Notes: generated by a model not told the origin, from the letters alone. A stretch of DNA of 64,000 nt from Candidatus Gottesmanbacteria bacterium GW2011_GWA2_43_14 (GCA_000999095.1 LCFP01000001.1:138230-202229), one strand, 5' to 3'. Shown: positions 1-64,000, counted from the stretch's first letter. Program-made: numbers and translations.

Positions 1-1506
1 TTGCGCAAATAATACAAACACCAATAAAAATCCCTTTGCGAAAAATGGTTTATACTGGCTGGCCTGGATAATAAAAGTCCGGGCATCTGAAAAACTATAA
101 TAGCTGGCAGAAACAGTTATAAGGGCAACATAGTTAAGAATGATCATTGCCAGCGACAAAATGTAACTGCTCCAAATCTTCAATTTTTTCCTGAAAGAGA
201 ACAACTGGCCCCATCCGGTTAACACCACAGCCATCTGGACTGGGATAAATGATAAAAAATACCTGCCTTGAATACCTAAAACGTATGAGCTTTTTTGCCA
301 AGAGTACCAATCGTATACTGAAATTGATAAAACGAAAATAAAAAAAGCCGTCAGGTAAAAAAATAAAGTCTGAACTTGAGGTGAGTTTAATTTTTTATTA
401 CGCCATATGGCAATCAGATAGATAACAAAACCAGCAATTGAGACAAACAAAACCCTGTTTATAATCCTGTGGACAATTCTCGGATAAGTCACACCGAGCC
501 AATTGAAGATTCCCCAATACCACGGTAAAACTTCCCTGTAAGAATGGGGCAAAGTATATTCTTGGCTAAATTTTAAAAAGCTCCTCAAATCGAAATTTTC
601 CGCTACTTCTTTAACAAGCGGAAATGTTGAAAAGTCAAGCCGGGTAAAAAATACGACAGATAAATAAAGCAGGCTGAAAGCTGCCAGCATTAAAAATATT
701 CTGTATTTATTATGCAAATCGCGAACCGCCAGGAAGATAAACAAAATTACCAGAAGCGGCAACATAACTATAAATTGAGGCTTTGTATAAATACCAAGTA
801 AAAGGCAACCGGTGATTTTCAGAATTCCAGAGTAAGTCCAACCGTTTTTTAACATCAATCCCGCGTAATACAAAAAAAGTGTCATCAGGAAATTCCCCAA
901 TGAATCGCTGTTGACTCCCGCATTTGCAAAAACCATCATCGGTTGGTACGCGGAAAGCACTGCCAAAGAAAGTTGAGAAATCATGTCTTTGGGAAATAGA
1001 AGTTTACCGATTTTGAAAATATAATAAATATTAAGAAGGAAAATTATCCCGGATAAAAACCTTACCATGAATACCCTGGTAAAAAGATCAGCCCCTTCCG
1101 CAATCTTATAGACTAAAGCCCCTCCCAGATAATAAAAAGGCGGATAGCGGGCAGCTTCCTGATGGACAAATTTTTTCCCGTAATCAGAAATCCCGCTGCT
1201 GCGGATGGCTTCCTCGTATTTTCCCGTCAACTGATCCGTATATTCAATGCGGTATTCCGGATTGAAAGTGAAGCGGTTCTTCCCCGAATTATCCCTGGCT
1301 GTTCCCAATAACTGTTCCGACAGGTAAATTTCCTCGGTCAGGTCATATTCCGCATCTTCAGAATTTCTCCACTTCTGAGACATGAAGGCTACCTGGCCGA
1401 AGTGTGCCTGTTCATCGGGAAAATGCCAAATAGGGACAATAAAGATCCACGAGAGCAGTGTCAGAATCAGCGACAGGTAAAAAAACAGTTTAATTCTTCT
1501 ATTCAT
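1..1506 (-). CDS. Partial (C-terminus runs off window start) polytopic membrane protein, DUF2142-like putative GT-C glycosyltransferase. Absent from the supplied ORF track because it has no stop in the window.
   Basis: Hand translation of the minus strand from ATG at 1506..1504 stays open to position 1. The ATG overlaps the stop of the upstream MTase (ATGAATAG). N-terminus reads MNRRIKLFFYLSLILTLLSWIFIVPIWHFPDEQAHFGQVAF... and ends ...FFAKGFLLVFVLFAQ at the window edge. Many hydrophobic helices. The PDEQAHF motif after TM1 resembles the PDExxH signature of DUF2142 membrane proteins. Confidence 0.5.
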   Translation of the reverse strand, partial: MNRRIKLFFYLSLILTLLSWIFIVPIWHFPDEQAHFGQVAFMSQKWRNSEDAEYDLTEEIYLSEQLLGTARDNSGKNRFTFNPEYRIEYTDQLTGKYEEAIRSSGISDYGKKFVHQEAARYPPFYYLGGALVYKIAEGADLFTRVFMVRFLSGIIFLLNIYYIFKIGKLLFPKDMISQLSLAVLSAYQPMMVFANAGVNSDSLGNFLMTLFLYYAGLMLKNGWTYSGILKITGCLLLGIYTKPQFIVMLPLLVILFIFLAVRDLHNKYRIFLMLAAFSLLYLSVVFFTRLDFSTFPLVKEVAENFDLRSFLKFSQEYTLPHSYREVLPWYWGIFNWLGVTYPRIVHRIINRVLFVSIAGFVIYLIAIWRNKKLNSPQVQTLFFYLTAFFIFVLSISVYDWYSWQKSSYVLGIQGRYFLSFIPVQMAVVLTGWGQLFSFRKKLKIWSSYILSLAMIILNYVALITVSASYYSFSDARTFIIQASQYKPFFAKGFLLVFVLFAQ

Positions 1507-2140
1507 CCGCCTCCAAAAGATATAAGGCTTCAGTTGCCAGCAAATTGGGAAAAAGAAACCAATTTTCCGAAAATCTTTTTTGTTTGGGATAAAGGTAAAA
1601 TCTTTTTAAGATTTTTAGTTGCCGCTTTTTGATAAACTCCTCGAAATCAGCAATTGACAGTTGATGCAGATGACCTGTTGAATACCAGTCATAGCCGGGG
1701 ATCATTGTCTTGGGCATACGTCCATAAAAAAGAAGTTCTAAGCGGTTGACAATAAAAGCGAAGTTGGGAAAAGAGACGATCTGTTTTTTGGCGATCCTCT
1801 TCATTTCCGACAGCAGAATTTCCGGATAGACCACCATTTGCAGAGTGACGTTGCAAACAGCAAAATCAAATTGCTTGTCTTTGAACGGCAAGGAAGTGTC
1901 AATCCTGCCGGTAATTGCTTTTATCCCTTTTTTTTTGGAGGCCGCGGCCGCGCTTTTGCTCATATCCATACCCCAACCGGCGATACCTCTTTTTTTCATA
2001 ATAGCCAGCAAAGTACCGTCACCGCAACCCAGATCAATGACCGTGCTGCCGTCGCTAACCAGACTATTTATCAAAGTATATTCCCGCCGGTCGGATCTGG
2101 AATTCAAATCATAAAGATAGTTACGGTTATCCAATTTCAT
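1499..2140 (-). CDS. Class I SAM-dependent methyltransferase (MetW-like small MTase)
   Basis: Motif I VIDLGCGDGTLL, acidic motif II, NVTLQ post-I region. 213 aa is typical of small MetW-type MTases. Confidence 0.7.
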   Translation of the reverse strand: MKLDNRNYLYDLNSRSDRREYTLINSLVSDGSTVIDLGCGDGTLLAIMKKRGIAGWGMDMSKSAAAASKKKGIKAITGRIDTSLPFKDKQFDFAVCNVTLQMVVYPEILLSEMKRIAKKQIVSFPNFAFIVNRLELLFYGRMPKTMIPGYDWYSTGHLHQLSIADFEEFIKKRQLKILKRFYLYPKQKRFSENWFLFPNLLATEALYLLEADE

Positions 2141-3252
2141 AAATAGCGTCTTAATATTTCCTCCAATTCCGCCATCCTTTTTTTATAATTGTGGTCGGCG
2201 AGCGTCCTTTTTTGACCGGCCCGGGCAATTAACTCTCTTCTTTTATCGTCGGCGAGAAAGTATTTCACTTTTTCCAACAGTTCGTCAACCGATCCATAAT
2301 CTTCAATCTCCTGCCCGACTTTAAACAAATCAGGTAAATTATTCTTGCGGTCGCTGATCAAAAGTGCGCCCATGCCGGTTGCCTCAAATAAACGCATATT
2401 ATTGGCATTGTCTTCGGCCACATCGATATGCCGGTTGATGACGATCTTTGCCCGGGCTAATATCCGGTACATGTCTAAACCCCAGGCCTGGCCATGGTAA
2501 GCCCGCCGCAACGGCGAGAAAGGATTGCCCGGAGATGTATATTGTCCCCAAAAATCCAGGCCGGCCGATTTTGCCACTGTTTCCAGCATTTTTGTCCCCT
2601 GCCGGTGATAAGGTGTCACGCTTCCCACGAAAACTGTCTGCAGATCTCGCGAGACCGCCCCGATTTTTTTCAGTACCCGGCGCTCAAAAGCCAATTTCAA
2701 ATATTCGCTTTTTTTGCCCATTTTCCTTAAACGCGTCACAAAATGGGGAAATGAGGTGACCACCAGATCAAAATACTGAAAGTATTTTCCGGCCGGTAAT
2801 GGCGAAGCAATCTGGGCGACGGCCAGTTTTACAAATCTTTTCATCAGCCGCAGAGTCTCCGGTTCGAGTAAAGTCATATCCTGACAATAAATAATATCCG
2901 GAGCATACTTCTTGATTTGGGCCAGGATTGTCTGTTGCATCCAGGCGGGACGGCCTAAAAAACGGTAAGAGTACGGCAGGCGGGCAAGATCGTCCATCAG
3001 GCCGCTTTGAGACAGGTGGAGTCCGTTTTCCTCTGCCCACTTCCGCTGAAGAATTTCATCGTTGGCTACTATGTCTCTTGCTTCAAACCCCTCTTTTTGC
3101 AAATTATAGGAATAAAAATCAGACGTGCCGAAAAACTGATCCATTAAAAGTCTCAGGTGTTTATCATAAGATAAACTTACGGCTTCAGGATGCTCCCTGA
3201 AAAAGTCACCCAAGAAACGGGGATAATAACTGTCAATAAAAACGATTTTCAT
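2137..3252 (-). CDS. GT-B fold glycosyltransferase (GT1/GT4-like, CgeB-like)
   Basis: C-terminal GT4-type motif FEATGMGALLISD with downstream conserved Glu. The N-terminal half is of the CgeB/DUF3880 type. Four-nt overlap with neighbours. Confidence 0.55.
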   Translation of the reverse strand: MKIVFIDSYYPRFLGDFFREHPEAVSLSYDKHLRLLMDQFFGTSDFYSYNLQKEGFEARDIVANDEILQRKWAEENGLHLSQSGLMDDLARLPYSYRFLGRPAWMQQTILAQIKKYAPDIIYCQDMTLLEPETLRLMKRFVKLAVAQIASPLPAGKYFQYFDLVVTSFPHFVTRLRKMGKKSEYLKLAFERRVLKKIGAVSRDLQTVFVGSVTPYHRQGTKMLETVAKSAGLDFWGQYTSPGNPFSPLRRAYHGQAWGLDMYRILARAKIVINRHIDVAEDNANNMRLFEATGMGALLISDRKNNLPDLFKVGQEIEDYGSVDELLEKVKYFLADDKRRELIARAGQKRTLADHNYKKRMAELEEILRRYL

Positions 3253-4164
3253 TTATCTTTTTATCCTTATTTTAATACCCACGGATCTGATGATATATCC
3301 GGCTGCATAAAAAACCGGGCTCAATTCCTCAACCAGCCACTGTTTAAAATTATTATGGCTGAATATTCTGACCGACGCCCTAATGGAAAAAACAATCAAT
3401 CCCCCCGTATATTTAAAAAAGGATAAGACAGCCCTGGCCGGATTATCCTCTAGATATACAAATTGTGAAGATCCGGATGCGTATGCCCTCTTCAACTGGT
3501 AAAACACGGTCATTTTATACGCTGATACCAAATGACTGACTTTCATTTCCGGGATATAGAAAAATTGTATTCCTTTTTTGTTGAGACGCGAGAATAACTC
3601 CGTTTCCTCACCCAGGGACAACTCTTCCCCTTTCATTCCCAGAGAAGTCCGGAAATTTCCGAATTTCCGAAACAGATCCTTCCTGAAGATCATATTGGAA
3701 CCTGAAAAAGTTTCCCCCTTCTTTAAAATCCGTTCATTATCTCCCCAAAACCTTGCTTCATATTCGTCCTTAAACCACGGGGGTTTCTTGCTTGTGTAGA
3801 AAGGATAAATGGGTCCGCCGAAAACGGAAACATGCAAATGATTTACGATAGTTTTTTGGGCAACCGAAAGATAATTTTCATCGGCAAGGGCATCATCATC
3901 GATAAAGGCAACAAAATCTCCGATTGATTCCGCGATACCCTTATTCCTGCTTCCGGCCAATCCGCTGGTACCTTCGAAAACCGTTTTCAATCTGGGCATT
4001 CCCTTATTATCAGGTAGGGGGATTTTTTTGGGATTTCCCGGATTATTATCAACCAGGATTATCTCATACTCATCTTTCGGGAACTTCAAACTAACCAGTT
4101 TCTTCAGACATTTTCCCAAAATACCGGGATGGTTATAGGTGGCAACGACTACGGAAAATATCAT
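3253..4164 (-). CDS. GT2 family glycosyltransferase
   Basis: N-terminal FSVVVATYNHPGILGKCL ... EIILVDNNPGN, DxD-like FIDDDA, GT-A fold length. Confidence 0.7.
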   Translation of the reverse strand: MIFSVVVATYNHPGILGKCLKKLVSLKFPKDEYEIILVDNNPGNPKKIPLPDNKGMPRLKTVFEGTSGLAGSRNKGIAESIGDFVAFIDDDALADENYLSVAQKTIVNHLHVSVFGGPIYPFYTSKKPPWFKDEYEARFWGDNERILKKGETFSGSNMIFRKDLFRKFGNFRTSLGMKGEELSLGEETELFSRLNKKGIQFFYIPEMKVSHLVSAYKMTVFYQLKRAYASGSSQFVYLEDNPARAVLSFFKYTGGLIVFSIRASVRIFSHNNFKQWLVEELSPVFYAAGYIIRSVGIKIRIKR

Positions 4165-5093
4165 TTCATCATCCTTTTGAATTTTCTTAGGGCATTTTTA
4201 ATCAGCGATGTTTCATTCCGCAAGGTAATCCAGCTCTTTCTTTTTTCCTTTTCCTTCAACTCCCATTTTTTAATAAACCCTGCCATGAAAGGAAAAAATT
4301 GGTATTTGTTGAGGATCAGATCCCTTGAGAAAGAAACGGCTTCATGGTTTTTTTTCCAGAGATTGCTTTCGGTAATTTCTTTTATTTTACGGTCAACGCC
4401 TTTTTCGTTAATATCAATTACCGCCATCGACTCATTTGGGAAATAATCGGATATATTTGTGCAACCGTAATAAATCGGCATGGTAAAGGCAAGAAAACAG
4501 TCGGCGAGTTTCTCGCTCCAATAATGCGGTCCTCTATAATTTTCTATGATCAGCGAATAACGGTAAGGAGCCAAAGCTTCCCACTTATCTTTAATATAAT
4601 TTAAACCTTTACCGAATAAATCAAAATCTACTTCATTCCGGATTCCCCTGATGAAATTCAGCCTCTCCCACTGTCCTCTAAATTCCGTTTTATCAGATGA
4701 AATACAGGAAAGTTTTTTTTGCTTGCGGAGATATTTCTCTCTTTTTAACTGATCATAGCTTTTATCGATATGCCATGGTAAAGCGGGTTGTGTATGGATA
4801 AAACGGTTTTCCCTAAGGCTTAGGTCCTGCATAAAAACCTGGGTATATACTTTATCTGCGTTATGGAAGTACTTAAAATACTCATTAGGAGGCTCCTGCA
4901 GGACGCACCAGATATTTTCCGGATAGCACTTTACCCTGACATCTCTTGAGGGGTAATTGGAAACTATAACATAATCGCATTCCTCTATTTCAGCATCGGT
5001 AAATTTGATATTATCCCATAATCCGGATGATTTCGGGGTTTGTCTCATAATATCGGGACTGTACCAGGATTTTACTATCCTAACTGTTTTCAT
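4161..5093 (-). CDS. Fucosyltransferase-like glycosyltransferase (GT10 alpha-1,3-FucT / GT56 WecF-like motif set)
   Basis: LIIENYRGPHYWSEKLADCFLAFTMPIYYG matches the FENSxxxxYVTEK...IPIYWG signature of GT10 fucosyltransferases. Confidence 0.5.
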   Translation of the reverse strand: MKTVRIVKSWYSPDIMRQTPKSSGLWDNIKFTDAEIEECDYVIVSNYPSRDVRVKCYPENIWCVLQEPPNEYFKYFHNADKVYTQVFMQDLSLRENRFIHTQPALPWHIDKSYDQLKREKYLRKQKKLSCISSDKTEFRGQWERLNFIRGIRNEVDFDLFGKGLNYIKDKWEALAPYRYSLIIENYRGPHYWSEKLADCFLAFTMPIYYGCTNISDYFPNESMAVIDINEKGVDRKIKEITESNLWKKNHEAVSFSRDLILNKYQFFPFMAGFIKKWELKEKEKRKSWITLRNETSLIKNALRKFKRMMK

Positions 5094-9304: not shown

Positions 9305-9996
9305 TTACTGAAATAACTTCCTTTCAGGAAAATCGTATTAATAAATGTATCAGCGTAAATTTTATATCCCATTTCTAGAATCTGATTTATCAGTGATCTC
9401 TTTTTTTCACCCAAGCCGCGGACAGTAAAAGTCACTGTCTCAATACATAAAATTGCAGGTTTATTTTCCAGTTTTTTAAGTGATAGTATTATTTTCCTCT
9501 CCGAACCTTCAGCATCGATAAGCAAAATATCCGGCATTACTCCATGACACTGTTCACTGATGATTTTTTGAAGAGTGGTAACGGGTATCTTTTTCCGGTC
9601 CTCAAGTAAATAACCTTCCCTTATACATTTATCTGCTTCTTTTTTGGAGAACGTATTCAGAGTTGCTATATTGAAACAATAATAAGTCATGACCTTCGCA
9701 GAATCCGAAACACCGGCAGTGAGGTTTATGTCTTGTGATCTGTATTTTTGAAACAATTTGCTGGCTTCAGGATTCGGTTCCACATTCACTCCTCTTGAAC
9801 CGAGTTCATAAAACAGGGCGGTATTACTGATATGAAACGGGTGATAAGCACCGATGTCAAGATAAGTCGGTTTGTCTAAGCTAATTGCACGGCACAAATG
9901 GAACAAAATCAAATCTTCTCCGCACTGTGAATAACTTACTTGACAGTATCTGTTTATTATCATCTTAAATCGTGTAAGGTAGTGAAATACGTTCAT
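9301..9996 (-). CDS. FkbM-family methyltransferase
   Basis: YLDIGAYHPFHISNT ... VNVEPNPEASKLF matches the FkbM-family DIGAN.G...EP.P pattern. Confidence 0.6.
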   Translation of the reverse strand: MNVFHYLTRFKMIINRYCQVSYSQCGEDLILFHLCRAISLDKPTYLDIGAYHPFHISNTALFYELGSRGVNVEPNPEASKLFQKYRSQDINLTAGVSDSAKVMTYYCFNIATLNTFSKKEADKCIREGYLLEDRKKIPVTTLQKIISEQCHGVMPDILLIDAEGSERKIILSLKKLENKPAILCIETVTFTVRGLGEKKRSLINQILEMGYKIYADTFINTIFLKGSYFSK

Positions 9997-14835: not shown

Positions 14836-16939
<2,104 letters not shown>

Positions 16940-18069: not shown

Positions 18070-18070
18070 T

Positions 18071-52773: not shown

Positions 52774-52775
52774 GT

Positions 52776-57958: not shown

Positions 57959-59622
57959 AATTTAGTTGAATATCCGGATGATAAATATAGTAGCAAACAC
58001 AGAGATAAAAAGGAAACGCTATTTGACACCTTTCTGACCGGAGTGTCCTTAAGTCTGAATTCGATGAGTTTTTTGCCTGACGGCACTTCAAATGACAATT
58101 TGCCCTCTATTTTGGCGGCCGGCACTTTATTACTATCGACCGAAACATTCCAACCCGGAAAAAAGGGTAGACTTGTTACCAGCCGGCCTCCTGCACCTTC
58201 CACCATATATATTTTATGTTCAGCCGTATCCTTGACTGATACTGCCTGTTGGCCGACAAGACCGCTGAATGGCGTGCGGTAAACTTCCTCTGCAGAAGAA
58301 GGCCTGGGAAAATCTTCCGGTAAATATTCATCGGATATTAAAGATGAGTTAAACCGCAAATTTTCAGTGTTGAGAAATTCATCCGCTTCGGGGTAGTACA
58401 GCGTTTGCGGCAGGAAATATTTAGGATAAAATATCAGACTGGCGGAAATTATGACCGCCGATAAAAATAAACTGTAATGCTTTGAAGTAAACCTGAACAG
58501 GCCGGTTACCAGAATTACCGAAAAAAGCAGGATGAAATTCAAAAAACGCCAGGGATATTGGATAAAAGTAAAACCGGGTATCATCCGGTAGACGGACGCG
58601 GACATCTCCAGGGTCATCAAAACACATATAATCAAAAAAACAAGGCTGATTAAATAAAAAAACTTGAGGCTGTTTTTCATTTTTTTACTTATGTAAACGC
58701 CTGTCAGGAGAATGATTGAGGCCAGCGTTAATAATATGTGCCATTTACCAATTTTAAATGACATGCCGTCGGCAAGACCCGGCCCTGACCCGGCAAAACC
58801 CCAGGCAGAATCCCATAATTGTCCGGGGGTTACAAAATGCTGCTCAAAATTACTCCCCTCAGTCTTAAGTTTGTCTACAGAAGTATAAGCCTGTTCCGCA
58901 AAAGCGGGAAAGATAAAAAAAGCCGATAAACCAACACCCAAAACAACCATCATTAAATATTTTTTTAAATCATGTTTCGAAAAATACATAATCGGCAGTA
59001 AAAGAAGGGACACTGCCGAAATGATTAGCCCGCTGATATTATGACTTAAAAAAATCCCCGCCAGCCCGACACTGCCCAGAAGAAATCCCCGTCTCTTTTT
59101 TGCGGCCTGTTCTGCCATACACCAATAGATGCCCAGAAAAAAGAGGGGCAGGAAGGCATAGGCATAGTATTCACCGACAGCCCCCCTGACATAGATATTG
59201 ACGGCATGATAAGGAGCATACAGGTAAAGAATAGCGGCTGCTATTCCGGCCACCCTTCCTGACAGAGACGCCGCCAAAAAATACATCAAAAGGGGCGCCA
59301 ACAATGCCCCGGCAAGATACATCAAATTAGTAGCAGTAAACAGGTCAAACCCCGACAAGTAAAATAATGCTCCCGTATAGTAAGGCAACGGAGCATAAAA
59401 ATTGAACAACGGATAACCGTAACCATAACCTAAATTTCCGACCATACGGACCGGAAACTGGCCTGACTTTAATTGCTCCGCCATCTCAAAAACACGAGCC
59501 TGCTGTGTTTTGTCATGGACCGGAAAAACAGCACTGCCGGTCAGGTGGCTGACAGCAGGATAAGAAAATAACAAAAGCAACAGAATGACCGGCAGGTGTT
59601 TCCTAATTAATGGAATCATCAT
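57931..59622 (-). CDS. Polytopic membrane protein, PTPS-related-domain/YfhO-like putative GT-C (paralog B). Start at the internal MMIPLIRK.
   Basis: VFPVHDKTQQARVFEMAEQLKSGQFPVRMVGNLGYGYGYPLFNFYAPLPYY, then about 12 TM helices and a C-terminal domain. The ORF-track start at 59688 overlaps the upstream gene. Confidence 0.5.
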   Translation of the reverse strand: MMIPLIRKHLPVILLLLLFSYPAVSHLTGSAVFPVHDKTQQARVFEMAEQLKSGQFPVRMVGNLGYGYGYPLFNFYAPLPYYTGALFYLSGFDLFTATNLMYLAGALLAPLLMYFLAASLSGRVAGIAAAILYLYAPYHAVNIYVRGAVGEYYAYAFLPLFFLGIYWCMAEQAAKKRRGFLLGSVGLAGIFLSHNISGLIISAVSLLLLPIMYFSKHDLKKYLMMVVLGVGLSAFFIFPAFAEQAYTSVDKLKTEGSNFEQHFVTPGQLWDSAWGFAGSGPGLADGMSFKIGKWHILLTLASIILLTGVYISKKMKNSLKFFYLISLVFLIICVLMTLEMSASVYRMIPGFTFIQYPWRFLNFILLFSVILVTGLFRFTSKHYSLFLSAVIISASLIFYPKYFLPQTLYYPEADEFLNTENLRFNSSLISDEYLPEDFPRPSSAEEVYRTPFSGLVGQQAVSVKDTAEHKIYMVEGAGGRLVTSLPFFPGWNVSVDSNKVPAAKIEGKLSFEVPSGKKLIEFRLKDTPVRKVSNSVSFLSLCLLLYLSSGYSTKLWLKKPISK

Positions 59623-61210
59623 GCTTTTTTCTGATAAAAATATAAACGCAATAGAATAAAGCTGACAAAGACACGATGTCTGCCGCAAACCGCACCGGAG
59701 TCTCAGTAAAATTTGCCTCTATCTGGTGCCGGCCATGCCCGAAATCTGCCTCGATAATTCCGAAGTCATTATTATATCTAAATGTCATTGGCTTGCCGTT
59801 ATCCGCCAGCTGCCAACCCGGGAAAAAAATTGTATTCAAACGGACAGTTCCCGGTGTGACTGCCTGAATAGTGAATTTTGCCTTACGGGAATTATAATTC
59901 AGGTCCGAAATCTCAGCATCGCCCGTCACAATCTCAGCTTTTCGCAAATAACGGTTTTCGGGTTTACGGCTTACATAAACCGGCATCAGTTCATCAGCTG
60001 AAGTTGTGGTGGCATCATTGGTCAAATAATAATCATCGCTTTTATTTATCGGATTGTTAATTCCGGTTAAGGGCAAAATAGACATAAAACCAATTAATAT
60101 TAGGAGGCTGCCGGCGTAGACAGCCTGTTTCTTATAAAATAAAAAAACTGACGCTAAGGCAACAATAAAGCACAATATGCCTCCCATCCTCCAGGGAAAA
60201 TCAATGGAGGACAAAAGAGGCAATTGCCAGACAAGCCGGGAAGAGGAGTGAAGCAGAAAAACCGTCAAAGGCACAGAGAGCAAAAAGAAAACTGCGGACT
60301 GAATTTTTGCACGGTTTTTAATTAAAAGGATGACAGACAGGATCAAAACAGACGTCTGTTGGGCAGTCAAGCCGAAAGACGGTAAGCCTACCCTTGGCGT
60401 GGCCATGAATATTTCACCCAAGCTGAGAAAATGTGATGACTTGTCAGCCAAAGGCATTATCGAAAGCAGGATGTATTTTCTTTCATGAAGGGCAGGGACA
60501 ATAAAAAAGGCAGCCAAGGCAAAAGACAGAATTACAGGAAATAAAATCAGCTTCAGCTTATTCGGCAAAACACTTTTTACATCTTTAAAAACAGTTATAA
60601 GCCACAAGAACCAAAACGGGGAAAAAAGCAGGGATAAGACATTATGGGTTAAGAGCAGTGACGCTAGAGACAATGAAAGAAGGACTCCCCTTTTTAGACC
60701 GGTCTTCTCCCTGTATACAAGGGTCAGATAAAATATCAGAGGGAAAAGGCTTAAAGCCAAAGATTCCCCGAGCGAGCCCCTGACATAAAGGTCAGTCAGG
60801 CGGTAAGGAACGGTCATATAAAAAAAAGCAGCCATCATGCCCGCCCAATTTCCTTTTATTTTGGCGGCTAATAAGAACATAAAATAGCCGGACATAAAAA
60901 CACTCAGGACAAAAAGCAATTTAATGATTTCAGTAAAGTCGGCCCCGGTCAGGCGGATTAAACTGCCGAGATAAAAGGGCAAAGGGTAAGTAAATGAAAA
61001 CAGCGGGTAACCGTAACCGTGGTTTAAATAATCAGACCATCGCGGCGGAATCTGCAGATCTTTGAGCTCCCTGACCATTTCTGCTAAACGCACAATTGCC
61101 CATTCGCCGTCATCGGTCGCAAAAAAACCCGGCCTGGAAAAAGGCAGTATCAGAAGGGTTGCCGCCAAAATGAGGATTAATCCGCAAAAATACGGCAGCA
61201 ACTTTTTCAT
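59603..61210 (-). CDS. Polytopic membrane protein, PTPS-related-domain/YfhO-like putative GT-C (paralog C)
   Basis: FFATDDGEWAIVRLAEMVRELKDLQIPPRWSDYLNHGYGYPLFSFTYPLPFY. Confidence 0.5.
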   Translation of the reverse strand: MKKLLPYFCGLILILAATLLILPFSRPGFFATDDGEWAIVRLAEMVRELKDLQIPPRWSDYLNHGYGYPLFSFTYPLPFYLGSLIRLTGADFTEIIKLLFVLSVFMSGYFMFLLAAKIKGNWAGMMAAFFYMTVPYRLTDLYVRGSLGESLALSLFPLIFYLTLVYREKTGLKRGVLLSLSLASLLLTHNVLSLLFSPFWFLWLITVFKDVKSVLPNKLKLILFPVILSFALAAFFIVPALHERKYILLSIMPLADKSSHFLSLGEIFMATPRVGLPSFGLTAQQTSVLILSVILLIKNRAKIQSAVFFLLSVPLTVFLLHSSSRLVWQLPLLSSIDFPWRMGGILCFIVALASVFLFYKKQAVYAGSLLILIGFMSILPLTGINNPINKSDDYYLTNDATTTSADELMPVYVSRKPENRYLRKAEIVTGDAEISDLNYNSRKAKFTIQAVTPGTVRLNTIFFPGWQLADNGKPMTFRYNNDFGIIEADFGHGRHQIEANFTETPVRFAADIVSLSALFYCVYIFIRKKHDDSIN

Positions 61211-62691
61211 AACTCGGGCACAGGCTTTATCCGGAAAAAGTAGAGATAACTGTCGCCAGTACCCCTTCGGATTCTGAATATCAATTCAGCCGGCCAGTCG
61301 TCAGAAAGCTTCTGTGAATCTTTAAGGACAAGATAAGTCGGTTTTTCGGAAGCAAATCCGATCAGTTCCTCTTTACCGCTGTCCACCGGCCAATAACCTT
61401 TAATGGTGATATTTTCATTTTGCTTAAGATAGATTTCATAAACCGCAGGATTTAAACCGAAAGTGCCTTCAGTTGCCAAAACGATCTCCTTCCCCGCAGC
61501 TTCTTTTTCAATAAATGAAATCACCTGGTTTACTCCGTATCCTGAAGGCCAGTCGTTCAACAGTTGGTTACGGTCACTGTCCGGTATCCTGGCTTCAAGT
61601 GGCCTGAAACTCACCAGATAGGAGTTTATGACCAATGGAGCCAGCACTACGGCTGGAACCAGGTATAAATATTTTGCTTTATCACGCGCAAATGAAGTCA
61701 TTCCGGACAAAAAATCAGCTGCAACCAGATAAAAAGGCACAGTCATAAAAAGGAGAAACCTGGGAAACAGCACTTTGCCGAAGGCGGCTAAAGAAAGGAA
61801 GGGAATTATAAACCAAAGTAATAAATATGGGATACGCCGGTCTTTTCTGATTAAGGCCAAAATTAATGCGATTAATATGACTGATATAAACGGCCAGGAA
61901 AAATATGAAAGGAGCATCTGTGTCAAACCGTTCAAATTCGGACGCAGTACCGAAAACGGCCGGTCAAGAAAATCACTCAAGGTATAGATAAAAGAATAGT
62001 TTTTTTGTTCAATAATATAGAAAAAAGGCGACAATCTGAGAGAATTATATATAATATGCGCAAGCAAAATACTCAATAGTGAAAGCCCGCTCCATTTTAA
62101 CAGTGATTTAAAATTATTTTTTCTTTGCCAGTTGAACAGCAAGAGGGAAAAAGGCATCAGATATATAAAGAAAAAAGCGGAAGATTTTGTCAGCAAACCC
62201 AAGCCGATAACCATACCTAACAAAAGCGCTATATCCAACTGCCGTTTTTTCACCAGCAATACTTCCAGATAGAGTGACCAGACAGCCAATGACAACAGTA
62301 GGGAATCCATTAACGCCAGCCTGTCATAGACAAGAGCAAAAGGCGTAAATAAATAAATCAAGCCGGTCCATACCGCCGTTCGGCGGTTAAACAGATGCAA
62401 AGCCAAAAGATACAATCCGGCGGCAGACAAAACCCCTGATAGTACGGATACCATCCTTCCGGCAATAAGCGGATCTTCCATTATTTTCAGAAAGGGATAC
62501 ATCGCCCAGGTCATCAATGGCTGTTTGCCGTCCGTCAGGGAAATAAAACGGTGAGCAGGATCATTTAAACCGATTTGCGCCCACCTGATGTAGATTGCTT
62601 CATCGGTAAAAATAGGTATTTTCGTCAGATTGAGAGTACGGCTGGCAAAAACAGACAGGCAGATAATAAAAATCAGTAAAAAGTCTCTCAT
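61207..62691 (-). CDS. GT-C glycosyltransferase, ArnT/GT83-GT39-like
   Basis: IPIFTDEAIYIRWAQ (DE motif first loop), GKQPLMTW, LLTKSSAFFF. 494 aa, mostly transmembrane. Confidence 0.55.
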   Translation of the reverse strand: MRDFLLIFIICLSVFASRTLNLTKIPIFTDEAIYIRWAQIGLNDPAHRFISLTDGKQPLMTWAMYPFLKIMEDPLIAGRMVSVLSGVLSAAGLYLLALHLFNRRTAVWTGLIYLFTPFALVYDRLALMDSLLLSLAVWSLYLEVLLVKKRQLDIALLLGMVIGLGLLTKSSAFFFIYLMPFSLLLFNWQRKNNFKSLLKWSGLSLLSILLAHIIYNSLRLSPFFYIIEQKNYSFIYTLSDFLDRPFSVLRPNLNGLTQMLLSYFSWPFISVILIALILALIRKDRRIPYLLLWFIIPFLSLAAFGKVLFPRFLLFMTVPFYLVAADFLSGMTSFARDKAKYLYLVPAVVLAPLVINSYLVSFRPLEARIPDSDRNQLLNDWPSGYGVNQVISFIEKEAAGKEIVLATEGTFGLNPAVYEIYLKQNENITIKGYWPVDSGKEELIGFASEKPTYLVLKDSQKLSDDWPAELIFRIRRGTGDSYLYFFRIKPVPEL

Positions 62692-62715: not shown

Positions 62716-63873
62716 TCAGCTTTTAATCAGATTTTTTGAAACAAGATAAAGTGAAGCGAGAACGAGCGGGACCAACAGGAAAATGTCTGCGGTTTTAGCC
62801 GTCAGCTCGGTATAGGTGCCGGAATAAAGGTATGGAAGGTAGCGCAAGAGAACCGCCCAGGATAAAACAGCTGTCAGATTTCTGATTTGTGGCTGATGTA
62901 TCAAAGAAACAATGCCGATTACAGTCAGAAAATACCAGGGATAGGCTTCCCTCAATGAAATTAAATATATGATCATAATTCCGACGGAAGCCAAAACCAG
63001 ATAAAGAAATTTCTCCCTGGATTCTCTGATCTTTTTGGGTGGGAACAAAACCAGAGGAATGACTACAGTTGTTAAATATTTAACCAAGGCGGACAGGGAA
63101 AGGAAAATCAGTGACCCTTTTATTCTTTTTTGAAAGTAATAATAAAAAAATATCAGCAGGAAAAACAGCATCATGGATTCGTTGTGCGGACTGACCAGGC
63201 TTTCAATAATCACCAATGGACTTAAAGCAAAATAGAGCATGTTTTCTCTGGCGGTTTTTACCCCGTCAGATAGACTAATTCTGCCGATAAGATATGTATT
63301 GCCCAAATACAGGAGAAAAAACATCAGCTTAAAACCTGCCATAGTCAGGACAAAAATTTGCCTGCCCAAATAGGAAACCGCTATGGAAACCATAAGCCAA
63401 ACCGGGCCATATGGGTACGTCCTGTGTGTCCAGTGCATGAATCTTGTCCATAAATCATCCGGAAAATCCAAAGCAGTATATAAATAAGGATTAAGATGGT
63501 ATTTGGTTACAATCCGCGCATCGAACAGATAGTTGAAGAAATCATGGGAAAAAGCAGGATAGGCAATGGCACCTGTTGCCCCGGTCACAACCAATAGAAG
63601 CAGTAGTTGGCGGCCGCTAAGCGGAAATTTTTCAGTCAGGAAAAGCCAGTATTTTTGCATGAAGAATAAACAGACTGTCAGCAGGAAAAATATCAGGGCA
63701 GATACAGGCCTGCGGAAATAGCCCAGGACGATCATCAGATTCTGGAAGGATTGGTAGGCAGAATTACCTGACAGGGTCAAATTCAGGTCTATCTGGGAAT
63801 AACTGTATACCGAAAGCAATATCAGAACAAGAAACGAGCCCGTGAGTAAGCCGGCATAAATTTTTTTAGGCAT
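62716..63873 (-). CDS. GT-C mannosyltransferase-like, GT87/DUF2029 (PimE-like)
   Basis: AFSHDFFNYLFDARIVTKYHLNPY resembles the GT87 FSxDxxRYxWDGR...GxNPY first-loop motif. 385 aa, about 10 TM helices. Confidence 0.5.
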   Translation of the reverse strand: MPKKIYAGLLTGSFLVLILLSVYSYSQIDLNLTLSGNSAYQSFQNLMIVLGYFRRPVSALIFFLLTVCLFFMQKYWLFLTEKFPLSGRQLLLLLVVTGATGAIAYPAFSHDFFNYLFDARIVTKYHLNPYLYTALDFPDDLWTRFMHWTHRTYPYGPVWLMVSIAVSYLGRQIFVLTMAGFKLMFFLLYLGNTYLIGRISLSDGVKTARENMLYFALSPLVIIESLVSPHNESMMLFFLLIFFYYYFQKRIKGSLIFLSLSALVKYLTTVVIPLVLFPPKKIRESREKFLYLVLASVGIMIIYLISLREAYPWYFLTVIGIVSLIHQPQIRNLTAVLSWAVLLRYLPYLYSGTYTELTAKTADIFLLVPLVLASLYLVSKNLIKS

Positions 63874-64000
63874 CGTATTTGCCCAGAGAGCTGTTAAACT
63901 TTATCCTCAAAAGATCATAGAGGCTTTCCAGCGAGTCTTTGACGGGGTTTACATTGCGGGTTTCCTGGTAATGCCACTCAATGGGTACTTCAGCTATGCG
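63874..64000 (-). CDS. Partial (N-terminus beyond window end) GT2 polyprenyl-phosphate sugar synthase, C-terminal fragment
   Basis: Minus-strand translation ...RIAEVPIEWHYQETRNVNPVKDSLESLYDLLRIKFNSSLGKYDA* ends with TAA in an 8-nt overlap (ATGCCTAA) with the 62716..63873 start. The EVPIxWxxR motif is the DPM1/GtrB C-terminal signature. Confidence 0.5.

What the first reader, a model, noticed from the sequence alone, without database searches (positions are those of the whole stretch)
1..64000. 64-kb single-strand glycosylation supercluster with at least 15 GT-C-fold enzymes and at least 5 polyprenyl-phosphate-sugar synthases
Apart from tgt and the three-gene DNA/protein-modification insert, every gene is glycan-related. 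Besides cytoplasmic GT2/GT4 enzymes, the locus holds:
- the seven GT39-like paralogs
- three PTPS-related/YfhO-like paralogs (21704, 57931, 59603)
- a YfhO protein (42364)
- a PIG-V-like mannosyltransferase (18761)
- a GT87/PimE-like protein (62716)
- an ArnT-like protein (61207)
- a DUF2142-like protein (1..1506)
- two unassigned polytopic proteins (5108, 51382)
- five DPM1/GtrB-like lipid-sugar donor synthases (18071, 23327, 54350, 57221, 63874)

This density of extracytoplasmic glycosyltransferases is comparable to mycobacterial LM/LAM/arabinogalactan assembly or eukaryotic GPI/N-glycan ER machinery. In a small-genome (likely CPR) bacterium it would be an exceptional investment, and it suggests a major, uncharacterized surface glycoconjugate.
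Basis: partly seen in the sequence, partly recalled or inferred. Interest (0 to 1): 0.8.

Follow-up and report, generated by a model that had tools for sequence, protein, structure and literature searches.

The report
Giant conserved glycan-assembly locus in Gottesmanbacteria
A tiny-genome groundwater bacterium (Candidatus Gottesmanbacteria, CPR) devotes at least 82 kb of about 1 Mb to one block of sugar-coat genes, including 17 to 20 membrane enzymes that add sugars outside the cell, which points to an elaborate, still unstudied surface glycan.

Summary
55 of 56 genes lie on the minus strand.

- **GT-C-fold glycosyltransferases:** 17 intact ones are supported by Pfam/NCBIfam hits, paralogy, profile-profile links, homologues' annotations or structure models. 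There is also one truncated paralog.
- **Donor synthases:** Five short soluble GT2 proteins resemble polyprenyl-phosphate-sugar synthases (PpgS/DPMS/ArnC-like). One sits beside a DUF2304 GacJ/Rv3632-type partner.
- **Extent:** The block continues on both sides of the window to at least 82 kb, 20 GT-C genes and 6 synthases.
- **Not chimeric:** Three independent assemblies give the same arrangement.
- **Source:** Candidatus Gottesmanbacteria.
- **Conservation:** The core (about 17-64 kb) is syntenic across many Gottesmanbacteria. Each of the seven GT39-like paralogs has its own ortholog elsewhere, so the duplications are ancient. Positions 1-16 kb form a swappable end containing a low-GC sub-block.

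**Best reading:** several multi-component transmembrane glycosylation modules plus Wzx and ABC export routes build or decorate envelope glycans or glycoproteins. Acceptors and sugars are not determined.

I found no paper describing this locus. It is a new variant of a known kind, of moderately high interest.

The parts
1..1506 (-). DUF2142-family GT-C protein. The N-terminal 502 of 525 aa lie in the window.
   Evidence: Pfam DUF2142 1.3e-19. Full-length gene seen. hhalign 94.5% to the g5108 family. PDE motif after TM1.
1499..2140 (-). MetW-like SAM methyltransferase
   Evidence: Pfam MetW 2e-49
2137..3252 (-). GT-B-type glycosyltransferase (Glyco_trans_1_2)
   Evidence: Pfam 3.2e-31
3253..4164 (-). 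GT2 glycosyltransferase
   Evidence: Pfam Glycos_transf_2 3.8e-19
4161..5093 (-). GT10-like (fucosyltransferase-like) protein; weak assignment
   Evidence: Pfam Glyco_transf_10 at 23.9 bits, equal to the cutoff. No NCBIfam hit.
5108..6592 (-). GT-C-fold glycosyltransferase with no Pfam or NCBIfam hit, inside the low-GC sub-block
   Evidence: No Pfam or NCBIfam hit. AlphaFold2 pLDDT 91. Foldseek top 37 hits are all GT-C, with TM-score 0.62-0.63 to STT3 and ArnT. 706 representatives at E<=1e-30.
6589..7398 (-). SAM methyltransferase
   Evidence: Pfam Methyltransf_23 7e-24
7395..8465 (-). GT2 glycosyltransferase
   Evidence: Pfam 8.3e-33
8462..9304 (-). GT11 (alpha-1,2-fucosyltransferase family) protein
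   Evidence: Pfam Glyco_transf_11 2e-26
9301..9996 (-). FkbM-type methyltransferase
   Evidence: Pfam Methyltransf_21 6.8e-13
9993..12734 (-). 913-aa three-domain protein: GT4, GT2 and methyltransferase
   Evidence: Pfam domains at residues 172-291, 359-587 and 692-797
12731..13960 (-). Wzt/TagH-like ABC ATPase with a C-terminal extension
   Evidence: Pfam ABC_tran. NCBIfam teichoic-acid and galactan export ATPase models, 3e-58 and 4e-54, below cutoffs.
13962..14789 (-). Wzm-like ABC-2 permease
   Evidence: Pfam ABC2_membrane 2.2e-21
14836..15996 (-). GT4 glycosyltransferase
   Evidence: Pfam Glycos_transf_1 3e-23
15980..16933 (-). GDP-L-fucose synthase-like SDR
   Evidence: NCBIfam Fcl 1.9e-84, full length, 284 bits against a cutoff of 500
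16959..17801 (-). GT2 glycosyltransferase (TuaG-like best hit)
17716..18117 (-). DUF2304 small membrane protein; GacJ/Rv3632-type partner of the adjacent synthase
   Evidence: Pfam DUF2304 2.5e-23. GacJ is a DUF2304 protein and Rv3632 stimulates PpgS (bioRxiv 10.1101/180810).
18071..18751 (-). Polyprenyl-phosphate-sugar synthase-like GT2 (PpgS/DPMS-like)
   Evidence: NCBIfam PpgS 7.3e-44, full length, below cutoff. Best PDB match is P. furiosus DPMS 5mlz, 1.6e-16.
18761..19891 (-). PIG-V/Gpi18-like GT-C protein
   Evidence: Homologues at 45-72% identity carry PF04188. JGI names some 'Gpi18-like mannosyltransferase'. 8 TM helices. No direct Pfam hit for this protein.
19888..20925 (-). GT4 glycosyltransferase
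   Evidence: Pfam 1e-34
20938..21723 (-). GT2 glycosyltransferase
   Evidence: Pfam 1.2e-16
21704..23323 (-). PTPS_related/YfhO-like GT-C protein
   Evidence: Full-length paralog of g59603 (5e-55) and g57931 (1e-44). The ortholog has weak PTPS_related and YfhO hits.
23327..24085 (-). Polyprenyl-phosphate-sugar synthase-like GT2
   Evidence: NCBIfam PpgS 6.8e-19 and AglJ 4e-18, below cutoffs. Full-length similarity to the other synthase-like GT2 proteins.
24082..25569 (-). Long UDP-galactopyranose-mutase-like flavoenzyme
   Evidence: Full-length PDB matches to T. cruzi and A. fumigatus UGM, 3.6e-15 and 1e-12. NCBIfam NF005548 above cutoff.
25544..26467 (-). GalE-like SDR epimerase
   Evidence: NCBIfam galE 5e-53, below cutoff
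26483..28069 (-). GT39-like GT-C paralog 1
28066..29691 (-). GT39-like GT-C paralog 2
   Evidence: Pfam PMT 6.7e-14. Own orthologs at 45-64% identity.
29688..31355 (-). GT39-like GT-C paralog 3
   Evidence: PMT_2 25.5 bits, just under the cutoff. Paralogy E 1e-45 to 1e-63. Orthologs at 44-53% identity.
31315..32952 (-). GT39-like GT-C paralog 4
   Evidence: Pfam PMT_2 2.6e-7. Orthologs seen.
32942..34735 (-). GT39-like GT-C paralog 5
   Evidence: Pfam PMT 2.8e-6. Orthologs seen.
34665..36311 (-). GT39-like GT-C paralog 6
   Evidence: Pfam PMT_2 2.3e-9. Orthologs seen.
36286..37146 (-). Truncated GT39-like paralog (286 aa, about 5 TM helices) lacking the DE loop. It is conserved in relatives.
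   Evidence: Weak BLAST matches to the paralogs. Sequence shown. 61% identity in L087 and 33% in L089.
37149..38834 (-). GT39-like GT-C paralog 7
   Evidence: Pfam PMT_2 4.9e-13. 74% ortholog in L087.
38847..41510 (-). Three non-glycan genes: DEDD exonuclease fused to a GIY-YIG (Cho-like) domain, a SET-domain protein and a NYN-domain protein
   Evidence: The insert is lineage-specific.
41531..42379 (-). GT2 glycosyltransferase
   Evidence: Pfam 5e-26
42364..44640 (-). YfhO-family GT-C protein (758 aa)
   Evidence: Pfam YfhO 5.7e-20. hhalign 93.8% to the PTPS-like family.
44621..48229 (-). One GT4 and three GT2 cytoplasmic glycosyltransferases
48226..49899 (-). Secreted or membrane-anchored 557-aa protein of unknown function
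   Evidence: One N-terminal TM helix. No Pfam or PDB hit. The ortholog has a weak DUF3863 hit.
49896..51341 (-). Wzx-type flippase
   Evidence: Pfam Polysacc_synt_3 7e-49
51382..52773 (-). Divergent GT39/PMT_2-like GT-C protein
   Evidence: Invariant FFQDDWF motif after TM1. hhalign 95-96% to the GT39 set. Homologues carry PF13231 and are named GT39 or ArnT-like.
52776..53171 (-). Cupin-domain protein
   Evidence: Pfam Cupin_2 2.4e-16
53213..54382 (+). tRNA-guanine transglycosylase (tgt), the only plus-strand gene
   Evidence: Pfam TGT 2.7e-118. Absent from this site in GCA_016195685.1.
54350..55090 (-). Polyprenyl-phosphate-sugar synthase-like GT2
   Evidence: NCBIfam PgfS 2.9e-17, ArnC 1.7e-13 and AglJ, all below cutoffs..
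55087..57224 (-). Two SDR sugar epimerase/dehydratase-like enzymes
57221..57958 (-). Polyprenyl-phosphate-sugar synthase-like GT2
   Evidence: NCBIfam AglJ 5e-12, ArnC 7e-11 and PgfS 1e-10, below cutoffs..
57931..59688 (-). PTPS_related-family GT-C protein
   Evidence: Pfam 2.8e-11
59603..61210 (-). PTPS_related-like GT-C paralog
   Evidence: Pfam 24.4 bits against a cutoff of 26.4. Paralogy 5e-38 and 5e-55.
61207..62691 (-). PMT_2 (ArnT-like) GT-C protein
   Evidence: Pfam PMT_2 5.5e-18. hhalign 98.3% to the GT39 set.
62716..63873 (-). MptA/MptB-like GT-C protein
   Evidence: Precomputed PF26314 hit. NCBIfam MptA 1.6e-12 and MptB 3e-9, below cutoffs.
63866..64000 (-). C-terminal 44 aa of a 267-aa polyprenyl-phosphate-sugar synthase-like GT2
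   Evidence: Sequence read. Full gene seen in L082. Full-length similarity to the other four synthase-like GT2 proteins.

Best explanation
**What it is.** The window is the central 64 kb of a glycan-assembly locus of at least 82 kb, almost entirely co-directional, in a Candidatus Gottesmanbacteria (Microgenomates, CPR) genome.

**How it most likely works (steps inferred from family membership).**
1. Short soluble GT2 enzymes of the DPM1/GtrB/PpgS type load single sugars onto polyprenyl phosphate at the cytoplasmic face. One of them has a DUF2304 GacJ/Rv3632-type membrane partner.
2. The lipid-linked sugars are flipped. Candidates are a GtrA domain fused to a GT2 in the flank, the Wzx proteins, or unidentified flippases.
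3. About 17-20 GT-C-fold membrane enzymes transfer the sugars to acceptors on the outer face.
4. The acceptors are probably glycopolymers built by the 15 cytoplasmic GT2/GT4/GT10/GT11 enzymes and exported by the Wzx and Wzm/Wzt routes in the same locus, and/or surface proteins.

**What is shown.** Gene content, family and fold assignments, module adjacency, conservation, and one-to-one orthology of the paralogs.

**What is inferred.**
- The donors and acceptors.
- That the seven anciently diverged GT39-like paralogs have non-redundant roles.
- That the adjacent GalE-like / UGM-like / GT2 trio supplies a furanose-type lipid-linked donor.
- That positions 1-16 kb (fucosyl- and methyltransferase-rich, ABC-exported, with a low-GC sub-block) form a variable, serotype-like end.
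For: - **Family and fold assignments of 17 GT-C proteins:**
- **Synthases form a distinct group.** Five synthase-like GT2 proteins align full-length with each other and with PpgS, DPMS, AglJ, ArnC and PgfS. The other eight GT2 proteins do not.
- **Synthase and GT-C genes are adjacent:**
  - g18071 plus DUF2304 g17716 beside the PIG-V-like g18761
  - g23327 beside g21704
  - g57221 beside g57931 and g59603
  - g63866 beside g62716 and g61207
  - a GT2-GtrA fusion beside a PMT_2 gene in the flank
- **A known precedent for the DUF2304 pair.** GacJ/Rv3632 are DUF2304 activators of GacI/PpgS. The multi-component paradigm, including soluble GT-A plus a small TM protein plus a Wzx flippase, is reviewed in PMC8035078.
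- **Export genes in the locus:** Wzx, Wzm and Wzt.
- **Sugar-nucleotide enzymes:** Fcl-like, GalE-like and UGM-like in the window, and RmlABCD and UGDH in the flank.
- **Conservation.** The core order is kept in at least 10 Gottesmanbacteria genomes. Each GT39 paralog has its own ortholog at 41-74% identity, against about 30-37% to the next-best paralog.
- **Concentration.** HMMs of these families find none in 314 kb of other Gottesmanbacteria-type loci.
Against: - No biochemical, expression or glycan-composition data exist for this locus.
- No initiating phosphoglycosyltransferase (WecA/WbaP type) and no Wzy polymerase was detected in the window or in the roughly 18 kb of flanks.
- No free-standing GtrA flippase lies in the window.
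- All synthase and MptA/B hits fall below NCBIfam equivalog cutoffs, so sugar specificity is unknown.
- Structure models were made for only 2 of the 17 GT-C candidates.
- The PIG-V-like and MptA/B-like proteins rest on homologues' or precomputed Pfam hits and did not link to the others by hhalign.
- Co-location alone does not prove that the modules act on a common product.
Confidence: 0.8

Rival explanations
1. The GT39-like array is mainly a protein O-glycosylation (O-mannosylation-type) system. Seven PMT-like enzymes with different substrate ranges would glycosylate Ser/Thr-rich surface proteins such as S-layer proteins, pilins or membrane-protein tails, as yeast Pmt1-7, actinobacterial Pmt or streptococcal GtrB/PgtC2 do.
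For: - Pfam PMT and PMT_2 hits, and a DE motif after TM1 in all seven paralogs.
- GT-C-dependent O-glycosylation of Ser/Thr-rich regions is known in Firmicutes (PMC12041528).
- Pilin glycosylation is suspected but untested in Saccharibacteria (PMC11623550).
Against: - No MIR domain was detected.
- The PMT_2 family also contains lipid- and polymer-modifying enzymes such as ArnT and GtlB (PMC8035078).
- The array is embedded among polymer-synthesis and export genes.
- No candidate acceptor protein is encoded in the locus.
Confidence: 0.3
2. The locus builds a lipoglycan or wall polysaccharide largely outside the membrane, step by step from lipid-linked monosaccharides, in the manner of mycobacterial LM/LAM/arabinogalactan. 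The GT-C enzymes would act as chain-extending and branching transferases rather than as decorating enzymes.
For: - An MptA/MptB-like protein.
- A PpgS-like GT2 plus a Rv3632-like DUF2304 pair.
- A PIG-V-like enzyme, a family that acts on a glycolipid in eukaryotes.
- A UGM-like mutase, and a dTDP-rhamnose pathway in the flank.
- Far more GT-C genes (17-20) than donor synthases (5-6), as in mycobacteria (mycobacterial comparison is background knowledge).
Against: - All similarities are at superfamily level and below equivalog cutoffs.
- No Emb/Aft-type or PimA/B-type genes and no phosphoribosyltransferase for a DPA-like donor were detected.
- The many cytoplasmic GT genes and two exporters argue that substantial assembly happens inside the cell.
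Confidence: 0.3
3. The block is a juxtaposition of several independent glycan systems (capsule or O-antigen-like, teichoic-acid-like decoration, protein glycosylation). They would sit together only because of strand bias and gene-order conservation in a small genome, not because they form one pathway.
For: - Two different export routes and at least six donor synthases.
- Positions 1-16 kb are replaced by different genes in GCA_016195685.1. A low-GC sub-block (0.34-0.41) lies at about 4.1-12.7 kb.
- Modules are rearranged in more distant loci such as L094, L106 and L160.
- Unrelated genes (tgt and the exonuclease/SET/NYN trio) are inserted in the block.
Against: - The core order from about 17 to 64 kb is conserved across species whose proteins have diverged to 40-70% identity.
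- Start/stop overlaps indicate co-transcription and translational coupling over long stretches.
- The family HMMs found no such genes in 314 kb of other Gottesmanbacteria-type loci, so the concentration is not a genome-wide property.
Confidence: 0.25
4. The cluster is an assembly artefact: a chimeric contig or collapsed paralogs.
For: GC content differs between positions 1-16 kb (0.39) and the rest (0.44).
Against: - The same arrangement occurs on a 291-kb ENA scaffold, a 217-kb Logan contig from a different run and a JGI contig.
- Orthologous order is found in other species.
- The paralogs share only 27-37% identity, so they cannot be collapsed or mis-joined repeats.
Confidence: 0.01

Closest known systems
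Multi-component (three-component) transmembrane glycosylation systems: GtrA/GtrB/GtrV, CsbB/GtcA/YfhO, GtlA/GtlB, GacI/GacJ/GacK/GacL (review PMC8035078)
   Same: - A GT-A/GT2 polyprenyl-phosphate-sugar synthase is encoded next to a GT-C transferase of the YfhO or PMT_2 type.
- There is a soluble GT2 plus DUF2304 partner, as in GacI/GacJ.
- A Wzx-type and a GtrA-type flippase candidate are present.
   Different: - The scale differs greatly. B. subtilis and L. lactis each have three GT-A/GT-C pairs. Here 5-6 synthases and 17-20 GT-C genes sit in one locus of a genome of about 1 Mb.
- GT-C genes far outnumber synthases.
- No free-standing GtrA gene lies in the window.
- The acceptors are unknown.
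Mycobacterial PPM/DPA-dependent envelope glycan assembly (PimE, MptA/B/C, Emb/Aft) and the PpgS-Rv3632-Rv3779 GalN pathway
   Same: - Many GT-C enzymes share a few lipid-linked monosaccharide donors.
- There is an MptA/B-like protein, and a PpgS-like GT2 with a Rv3632-like DUF2304 partner.
   Different: - Similarities are at superfamily level only, and the equivalog cutoffs are not met.
- The mycobacterial genes are scattered over a 4.4-Mb genome (background knowledge), whereas here they are contiguous.
- No Emb/Aft, PimA/B or DPA-synthesis genes were detected.
Eukaryotic ER-lumen glycosylation machinery (Pmt1-7, ALG3/9/12, PIG-V/PIG-M, DPM1-3)
   Same: - A family of seven PMT-like paralogs, a PIG-V-family protein, and short TM-less DPM1-like synthases that need a membrane partner.
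- The structural matches are to Pmt4, ALG12, ALG9 and STT3.
   Different: - The host is bacterial, and the carrier is probably undecaprenyl-type.
- No STT3 or ALG sequence-level homology was found.
- No MIR domains are present.
- The resemblance is at the level of fold and logic, not orthology.
GT136 three-component pentofuranose systems (Kelly et al. 2024, PMC11127046)
   Same: - Extracytoplasmic addition of a furanose from a polyprenyl-phosphate donor by a GT-C enzyme, with auxiliary epimerases diversifying the donor.
- Here a UGM-like mutase and SDR epimerases sit next to synthase-like GT2 and GT-C genes.
   Different: - The donor there is made from PRPP by a phosphoribose synthase and flipped by a MATE protein.
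- Here a UGM-like/GalE-like/GT2 trio suggests a hexofuranose route. This is only a hypothesis.
ABC-transporter-dependent and Wzx-dependent polysaccharide gene clusters (O-antigen, capsule or teichoic-acid type)
   Same: - Wzm/Wzt and Wzx genes sit with neighbouring GT2/GT4, fucosyltransferase-like and methyltransferase genes.
- There is a variable, low-GC, swappable block.
   Different: - No Wzy, chain-length regulator or initiating phosphoglycosyltransferase was found in the locus.
- The clusters are embedded in a much larger conserved block rich in GT-C genes.

Membership tests
GT-C fold glycosyltransferase superfamily | Polytopic membrane protein with about 8-14 TM helices | tested here: met
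   A hydropathy scan gives 5-14 TM segments for all 17 candidates. It is a crude method and undercounts for some GT39 paralogs. The AlphaFold2 models of g5108 and g26483 show many helices.
GT-C fold glycosyltransferase superfamily | Conserved acidic (DxD-like, DE or DD) motif in the first extracytoplasmic loop | tested here: met
   - DE is invariant in the 7 paralogs.
- TDE is invariant in the g61207 family.
- QDDW is invariant in the g51382 family.
- PDE occurs in g1, HD/DD in the three PTPS-like proteins and FDG in g18761.
- The motif is less clear in g5108 and g62716.
GT-C fold glycosyltransferase superfamily | Three-dimensional fold matches solved GT-C enzymes | tested here: met
   - g5108: Foldseek E 1e-7, TM-score 0.62-0.63 to STT3 and ArnT.
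Thirteen link to these two by paralogy or hhalign at 92-98% probability. The PIG-V-like and MptA/B-like proteins did not link.
GT-C fold glycosyltransferase superfamily | Uses polyprenyl-phosphate or polyprenyl-diphosphate-linked sugar donors | not testable with these tools
   This needs enzymology. It is supported only by the adjacency of synthase-like GT2 genes.
GT39 / PMT protein O-mannosyltransferases | PMT or PMT_2 domain above the Pfam gathering score | tested here: met
   6 of the 7 array paralogs and g61207 score above the cutoff. g29688 scores 25.5 against 26.1.
GT39 / PMT protein O-mannosyltransferases | Transfers mannose from polyprenyl-phosphate-mannose to Ser/Thr of proteins (eukaryotic members also have a lumenal MIR domain) | not testable with these tools
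   No MIR domain hit was found. Bacterial Pmt enzymes lack this domain too (background knowledge). The acceptor and the sugar are unknown.
Polyprenyl-phosphate sugar synthases (DPM1/GtrB/ArnC/PpgS type GT2) | Full-length similarity to characterised synthases, distinct from other GT2 proteins | tested here: met
   - The best NCBIfam hits of the four complete proteins are PpgS, AglJ, PgfS or ArnC over about 200-220 aa.
- g18071 matches DPMS 5mlz at 1.6e-16.
- The six proteins align full-length with each other, whereas other GT2 proteins align only over the N-terminal region.
Polyprenyl-phosphate sugar synthases (DPM1/GtrB/ArnC/PpgS type GT2) | Equivalog-level match that defines sugar specificity | tested here: not met
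   All scores fall far below the NCBIfam equivalog cutoffs, for example PpgS at 150 bits against 370. The sugars carried are therefore unknown.
GacI/GacJ or PpgS/Rv3632 two-subunit synthase | Soluble GT2 synthase encoded next to a DUF2304 small membrane protein | tested here: met
   g18071 lies next to g17716 (DUF2304, 2.5e-23). The pair is conserved in L087, L088, L089, L094 and L166.
Multi-component transmembrane glycosylation system | Dedicated flippase (GtrA-type or Wzx-type) | tested here: inconclusive
   A Wzx gene (g49896) lies in the window, and a GtrA domain is fused to a GT2 in the flank. No free-standing GtrA gene was found. Which flippase serves which module is unknown.
MptA/MptB (GT87-type) alpha-1,6-mannosyltransferases | Match to the family models at the curated cutoff | tested here: not met
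   TIGR03459 scores 47 bits against 439. NF038066 scores 35.9 against 40. The precomputed Pfam PF26314 MptA_B_family hit supports family-level relatedness only.
PIG-V / Gpi18 (PF04188, GT76-type) | Match to PF04188 | tested here: inconclusive
   g18761 itself gives no Pfam hit at E<=1. Most of its listed homologues (45-72% identity) carry PF04188.
Wzx/Wzy-dependent polysaccharide pathway | Wzx flippase, Wzy polymerase and initiating phosphoglycosyltransferase | tested here: not met
   Wzx is present. No Wzy or O-antigen-ligase family hit, and no Bac_transf or Glycos_transf_4 hit, was found in the window or flanks. The Wzy candidate g51382 proved to be GT39-like.
ABC-transporter-dependent polysaccharide pathway | Adjacent ABC-2 permease and Wzt/TagH-type ATPase with glycosyltransferases | tested here: met
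   g13962 is ABC2_membrane and g12731 is ABC_tran with TagH/Wzt-like best hits.

The most novel reading that the evidence does not exclude
Gottesmanbacteria, with genomes of about 1 Mb, assemble a complex envelope heteroglycan or glycoprotein coat largely on the outer face of the membrane. They would use an ER-like or mycobacteria-like battery of about 20 GT-C enzymes fed by at least six different lipid-linked monosaccharides.

This reading includes three specific elements:
- a previously unknown polyprenyl-phosphate-hexofuranose donor made by the conserved GalE-like / long-UGM-like / DPM1-like trio
- a set of seven anciently diverged GT39-like enzymes, plus a conserved catalytically dead paralog, acting as an ordered or heteromeric assembly line
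- a coat that is central to the episymbiotic or cell-surface biology of this CPR lineage
Probability: 0.25. Interest if true: 0.8.

Novelty: new variant of a known kind. Interest (0 to 1): 0.62.

Why it matters
CPR/Patescibacteria are a large part of bacterial diversity, are mostly uncultured, and are thought to live attached to other cells. What their surfaces are made of is almost unknown. One paper explicitly calls glycosylation in Saccharibacteria unexplored (PMC11623550).

- **Scale of investment.** The locus takes roughly 8% of a genome of about 1 Mb. That estimate uses related complete chromosomes of 0.995-1.09 Mb.
- **Evidence of selection.** The locus is conserved across the lineage, and each paralog is individually maintained. 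This implies strong selection on a complex surface glycan.
- **Concrete targets.** It supplies five to six donor synthases that can be assayed in E. coli membranes, 17-20 GT-C enzymes, and a sizeable GT-C family with no Pfam or NCBIfam match (706 representatives at E<=1e-30).
- **A natural comparison set.** The seven orthologous GT39-like lineages can be used to study how GT-C acceptor specificity evolves.

Tried and rejected
- **Wzy hypothesis for g51382 (next to Wzx).** Rejected. Its family has a GT-C-type QDDW motif, links to the GT39 set by hhalign, and its homologues carry PMT_2.
- **Chimeric contig.** Rejected.
- **Recent tandem amplification of the GT39 genes.** Rejected. The paralogs share 27-37% identity and each has its own ortholog in other species.
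- **g36286 as a recent pseudogene.** Unlikely, because it is conserved at 61% and 33% identity in relatives.
- **Sequence searches of PDB.** The g51382 family profile gave only chance matches at E 0.3, the GT39 profile gave none, g62716 gave one chance hit at E 0.98, and g48226 gave none.
- **Promoter and terminator consensus scan.** Promoter-like sites were at chance level (37 against 32 expected). Terminator-like sites (41 against 27 expected) lay mostly inside genes. The scan did not define operon boundaries.
- **tRNA scan.** None found.
- **hhalign of the MptA/B-like and PIG-V-like families against the other GT-C families.** No significant link.
- **Literature.** None found a description of GT-C or glycosylation clusters in CPR, Microgenomates or Gottesmanbacteria. 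One search was badly specified and uninformative.
- **Walking the cluster.** It could not be followed beyond about 8.5-9.7 kb on either side, so the left boundary was not reached.

Full report
**Observation**

The window holds 56 tightly packed genes. 55 are on the minus strand and only tgt (53213-54382) is on the plus strand. Many neighbours overlap by 4-8 bases and the largest gap is 164 bp. No tRNA genes are present. Pfam and NCBIfam scans of every protein show that 37 of the 56 genes encode glycosyltransferases:
- 15 cytoplasmic Leloir-type enzymes: eight GT2, four GT4/GT-B, one GT11, one borderline GT10, and one 913-aa GT4-GT2-methyltransferase fusion
- five short GT2 proteins of the polyprenyl-phosphate-sugar-synthase type
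- 17 polytopic GT-C-type proteins

The remaining genes encode:
- three stand-alone methyltransferases
- sugar-nucleotide enzymes: Fcl-like, GalE-like, two further SDRs and a UGM-like flavoenzyme
- a cupin
- Wzx, Wzm and Wzt
- a DUF2304 protein
- a secreted protein of unknown function
- four non-glycan genes: tgt and an exonuclease-GIY-YIG / SET / NYN trio

**GT-C count**

Twelve proteins have direct family hits:
- six of the seven GT39-like paralogs
- g61207 (PMT_2)
- g42364 (YfhO)
- g57931 (PTPS_related)
- g1 (DUF2142)
- g62716 (precomputed PF26314 MptA_B, plus sub-cutoff MptA/MptB hits)
- g29688, at 25.5 bits against a cutoff of 26.1

Further support comes from several lines.
- BLAST shows the seven GT39-like proteins are full-length paralogs at 27-37% identity. 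g21704, g57931 and g59603 are full-length paralogs of each other.
- All seven GT39-like proteins keep an invariant DE pair after the first TM helix.
- g18761 has no Pfam hit of its own. Most of its listed homologues, among 1025 detected, carry PF04188 (PIG-V), and JGI names some of them Gpi18-like mannosyltransferase.
Its model matches only GT-C structures: STT3, ArnT, PglB, AglB, ALG9/12, AftA, DPY19 and Pmt4.
- The second, g51382, has an invariant FFQDDWF motif after TM1. It links to the GT39 set at 95-96% hhalign probability, and its homologues are annotated PMT_2, GT39 or ArnT-like.
- Profile-profile comparison joins the GT39, g61207, g5108, g51382, PTPS-like, YfhO and DUF2142 families into one network at 92-98%. 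The MptA/B-like and PIG-V-like families stay unlinked.
- g36286 is a 286-aa remnant of the GT39 family. It lacks the DE loop, yet it is conserved in relatives.

**Donor synthases**

g18071, g23327, g54350, g57221 and the partial g63866 (267 aa in full) align with each other over their whole length at 22-30% identity. The other eight GT2 proteins align with them only at the N-terminus. Their best NCBIfam matches are PpgS, AglJ, PgfS and ArnC. All fall below equivalog cutoffs, so the sugars are unknown. g18071's best solved relative is the Pyrococcus dolichol-phosphate-mannose synthase, followed by ArnC.

g18071 lies next to a DUF2304 protein, g17716. GacJ of Streptococcus pyogenes is a DUF2304 protein that activates GacI, and M. 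tuberculosis Rv3632 does the same for PpgS (bioRxiv 10.1101/180810).

**Extent, source and integrity**

Exact-match look-ups place the window on a 291-kb scaffold (ENA ERZ28564302). NCBI names the proteins as Candidatus Gottesmanbacteria bacterium GW2011_GWA2_4… (name truncated in the output), with UV73_C0001 locus tags.

The block continues on both sides.
- Past position 64000 lie the rest of the GT2, a PMT_2 protein, a GT2-GtrA fusion, two epimerases, UGDH and RmlDBCA.
- Past position 1 lie the rest of the DUF2142 gene, a PMT_2 protein, DegT, a second Wzx, GT2, GT4, GT2 and a methyltransferase. A further PMT_2 gene follows on the other strand.

That makes at least 82 kb, 20 GT-C genes and six synthases. 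The left boundary was not reached.

The same arrangement occurs on a 217-kb contig from an independent run and on a JGI contig, so the contig is not chimeric.

**Conservation**

- Nine Gottesmanbacteria-type loci whose TGT is at least 57% identical keep the order of window 42-64 kb. Those at 51% identity or below do not.
- GCA_016195685.1 keeps the whole core order but lacks tgt at this site. It carries different GT4, methyltransferase and acetyltransferase genes where window 1-16 kb lies.
- The window's genes at about 4.1-12.7 kb have GC 0.34-0.41, against about 0.44 elsewhere. The few homologues of g5108 include Bacteroidia proteins. Together with the swap seen in GCA_016195685.1, this fits a swappable, partly acquired end.
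- A metagenome scan found tandem arrays of 2-6 GT39-like genes in nearly all of 79 related loci.
- Each window paralog has its own ortholog in other species at 41-74% identity, against about 30-37% to the next-best paralog, and in collinear order. The duplications are therefore ancient and each copy is maintained.
- HMMs of the window's GT-C families hit nothing in 314 kb of other Gottesmanbacteria-type loci or in 870 kb of other bacterial loci. These HMMs were built from the window's own families, so the control shows only that such genes are not spread evenly through these genomes.

**Mechanism**

The anatomy matches the multi-component transmembrane glycosylation paradigm (PMC8035078). In that scheme a GT-A enzyme makes a polyprenyl-phosphate-sugar, sometimes as a soluble enzyme with a small membrane partner. 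A GtrA- or Wzx-type protein flips it. A GT-C enzyme then transfers the sugar to a polymer outside the membrane. The same logic serves protein O-glycosylation in streptococci (PMC12041528) and pentofuranose addition with auxiliary epimerases (PMC11127046).

Here synthase-like and GT-C genes are adjacent in at least five places, and Wzx and Wzm/Wzt routes are encoded alongside.

One conserved trio sits directly next to the GT39 array in five other loci. It comprises GalE-like g25544, g24082 and synthase-like g23327. g24082 is a long flavoenzyme that matches eukaryote-type UDP-galactopyranose mutases over its full length. This suggests a furanose-type lipid-linked donor, but it is a hypothesis only.

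Which molecules are glycosylated cannot be decided from sequence. The fold matches to Pmt4, AglB, ALG12, ArnT and STT3B are nearly equal. No initiating phosphoglycosyltransferase and no Wzy polymerase was found in the locus.

**Comparison and novelty**

Every component family is known. The unusual features are the concentration and the conservation:
- 17-20 GT-C genes and 5-6 donor synthases sit in one block that is co-directional apart from tgt and the outermost left-flank genes.
- Related complete chromosomes are only 0.995-1.09 Mb.
- B. subtilis and L. lactis, by comparison, each have three GT-A/GT-C pairs.
- Mycobacteria have comparable numbers, but scattered over 4.4 Mb (my own knowledge).

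None of ten full-text searches found a description of this locus or of GT-C-rich clusters in CPR. The genome itself has been public for years with these genes largely labelled hypothetical.

I rate it a new variant of a known kind. The locus is real and its core is conserved. It probably matters for the surface biology of this lineage, but its products and acceptors remain unknown.

Noticed in passing
window 5108-6592: g5108 belongs to a GT-C-fold family with no Pfam or NCBIfam match. An exhaustive profile search finds 706 50%-identity cluster representatives at E<=1e-30 and 2277 at E<=1e-3. Some named homologues are from Bacteroidia or Flavobacteriales, and the gene lies in the low-GC sub-block, which suggests lateral acquisition.
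   Followed up: yes
window 36286-37146: This is a truncated GT39-like paralog of 286 aa. It lacks the catalytic DE loop and the C-terminal half. It is nevertheless conserved at the same array position in L087 (61% identity) and L089 (33%), so it may be a non-catalytic subunit rather than a decaying pseudogene.
   Followed up: partly
window 23327-26467: A GalE-like SDR, a long 'eukaryote-type' UDP-galactopyranose-mutase-like flavoenzyme (full-length match to T. cruzi and A. fumigatus UGM) and a DPM1-like GT2 form a trio. The trio is conserved next to the GT39 array in L087, L088, L147, L089 and L166. It could make a lipid-linked hexofuranose donor.
   Followed up: partly
window 53171-54382: tgt is the only plus-strand gene. 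Its start lies 41 bp from the divergent cupin gene, and its 3' end overlaps the convergent GT2 g54350 by 33 bp. Minus-strand transcription of the block would therefore run antisense through tgt. tgt is absent from this site in GCA_016195685.1.
   Followed up: partly
window 38847-41510: Three genes are inserted between the GT39 array and the YfhO module: a DEDD exonuclease fused to a GIY-YIG (Cho-like) domain, a SET-domain protein and a NYN-domain protein. The exonuclease has a 60%-identical ortholog at the same array-flanking position in L087. The insert is absent in L089, where the GT2 ortholog abuts the array.
   Followed up: partly
window 48226-49899: This 557-aa protein has an N-terminal signal or anchor helix and no Pfam, NCBIfam or PDB sequence match. 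It is conserved between Wzx and the GT2 genes in relatives at 37-49% identity. One ortholog has a weak DUF3863 hit.
   Followed up: partly
window 9993-12734: A single 913-aa protein fuses GT4, GT2 and SAM-methyltransferase domains. It lies next to the Wzt/Wzm exporter and has the lowest GC3 in the window (0.31). It resembles the polymerising or terminating multidomain enzymes of ABC-dependent O-antigen pathways (comparison from my own knowledge, not tested).
   Followed up: no
window 55087-56349: The SDR gene's longest ORF (420 aa) overlaps the upstream gene by 145 bp. Public gene calls use a 373-aa product. Pfam matches the Epimerase domain in two separate stretches, which suggests an insertion within the Rossmann-fold enzyme.
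   Followed up: no
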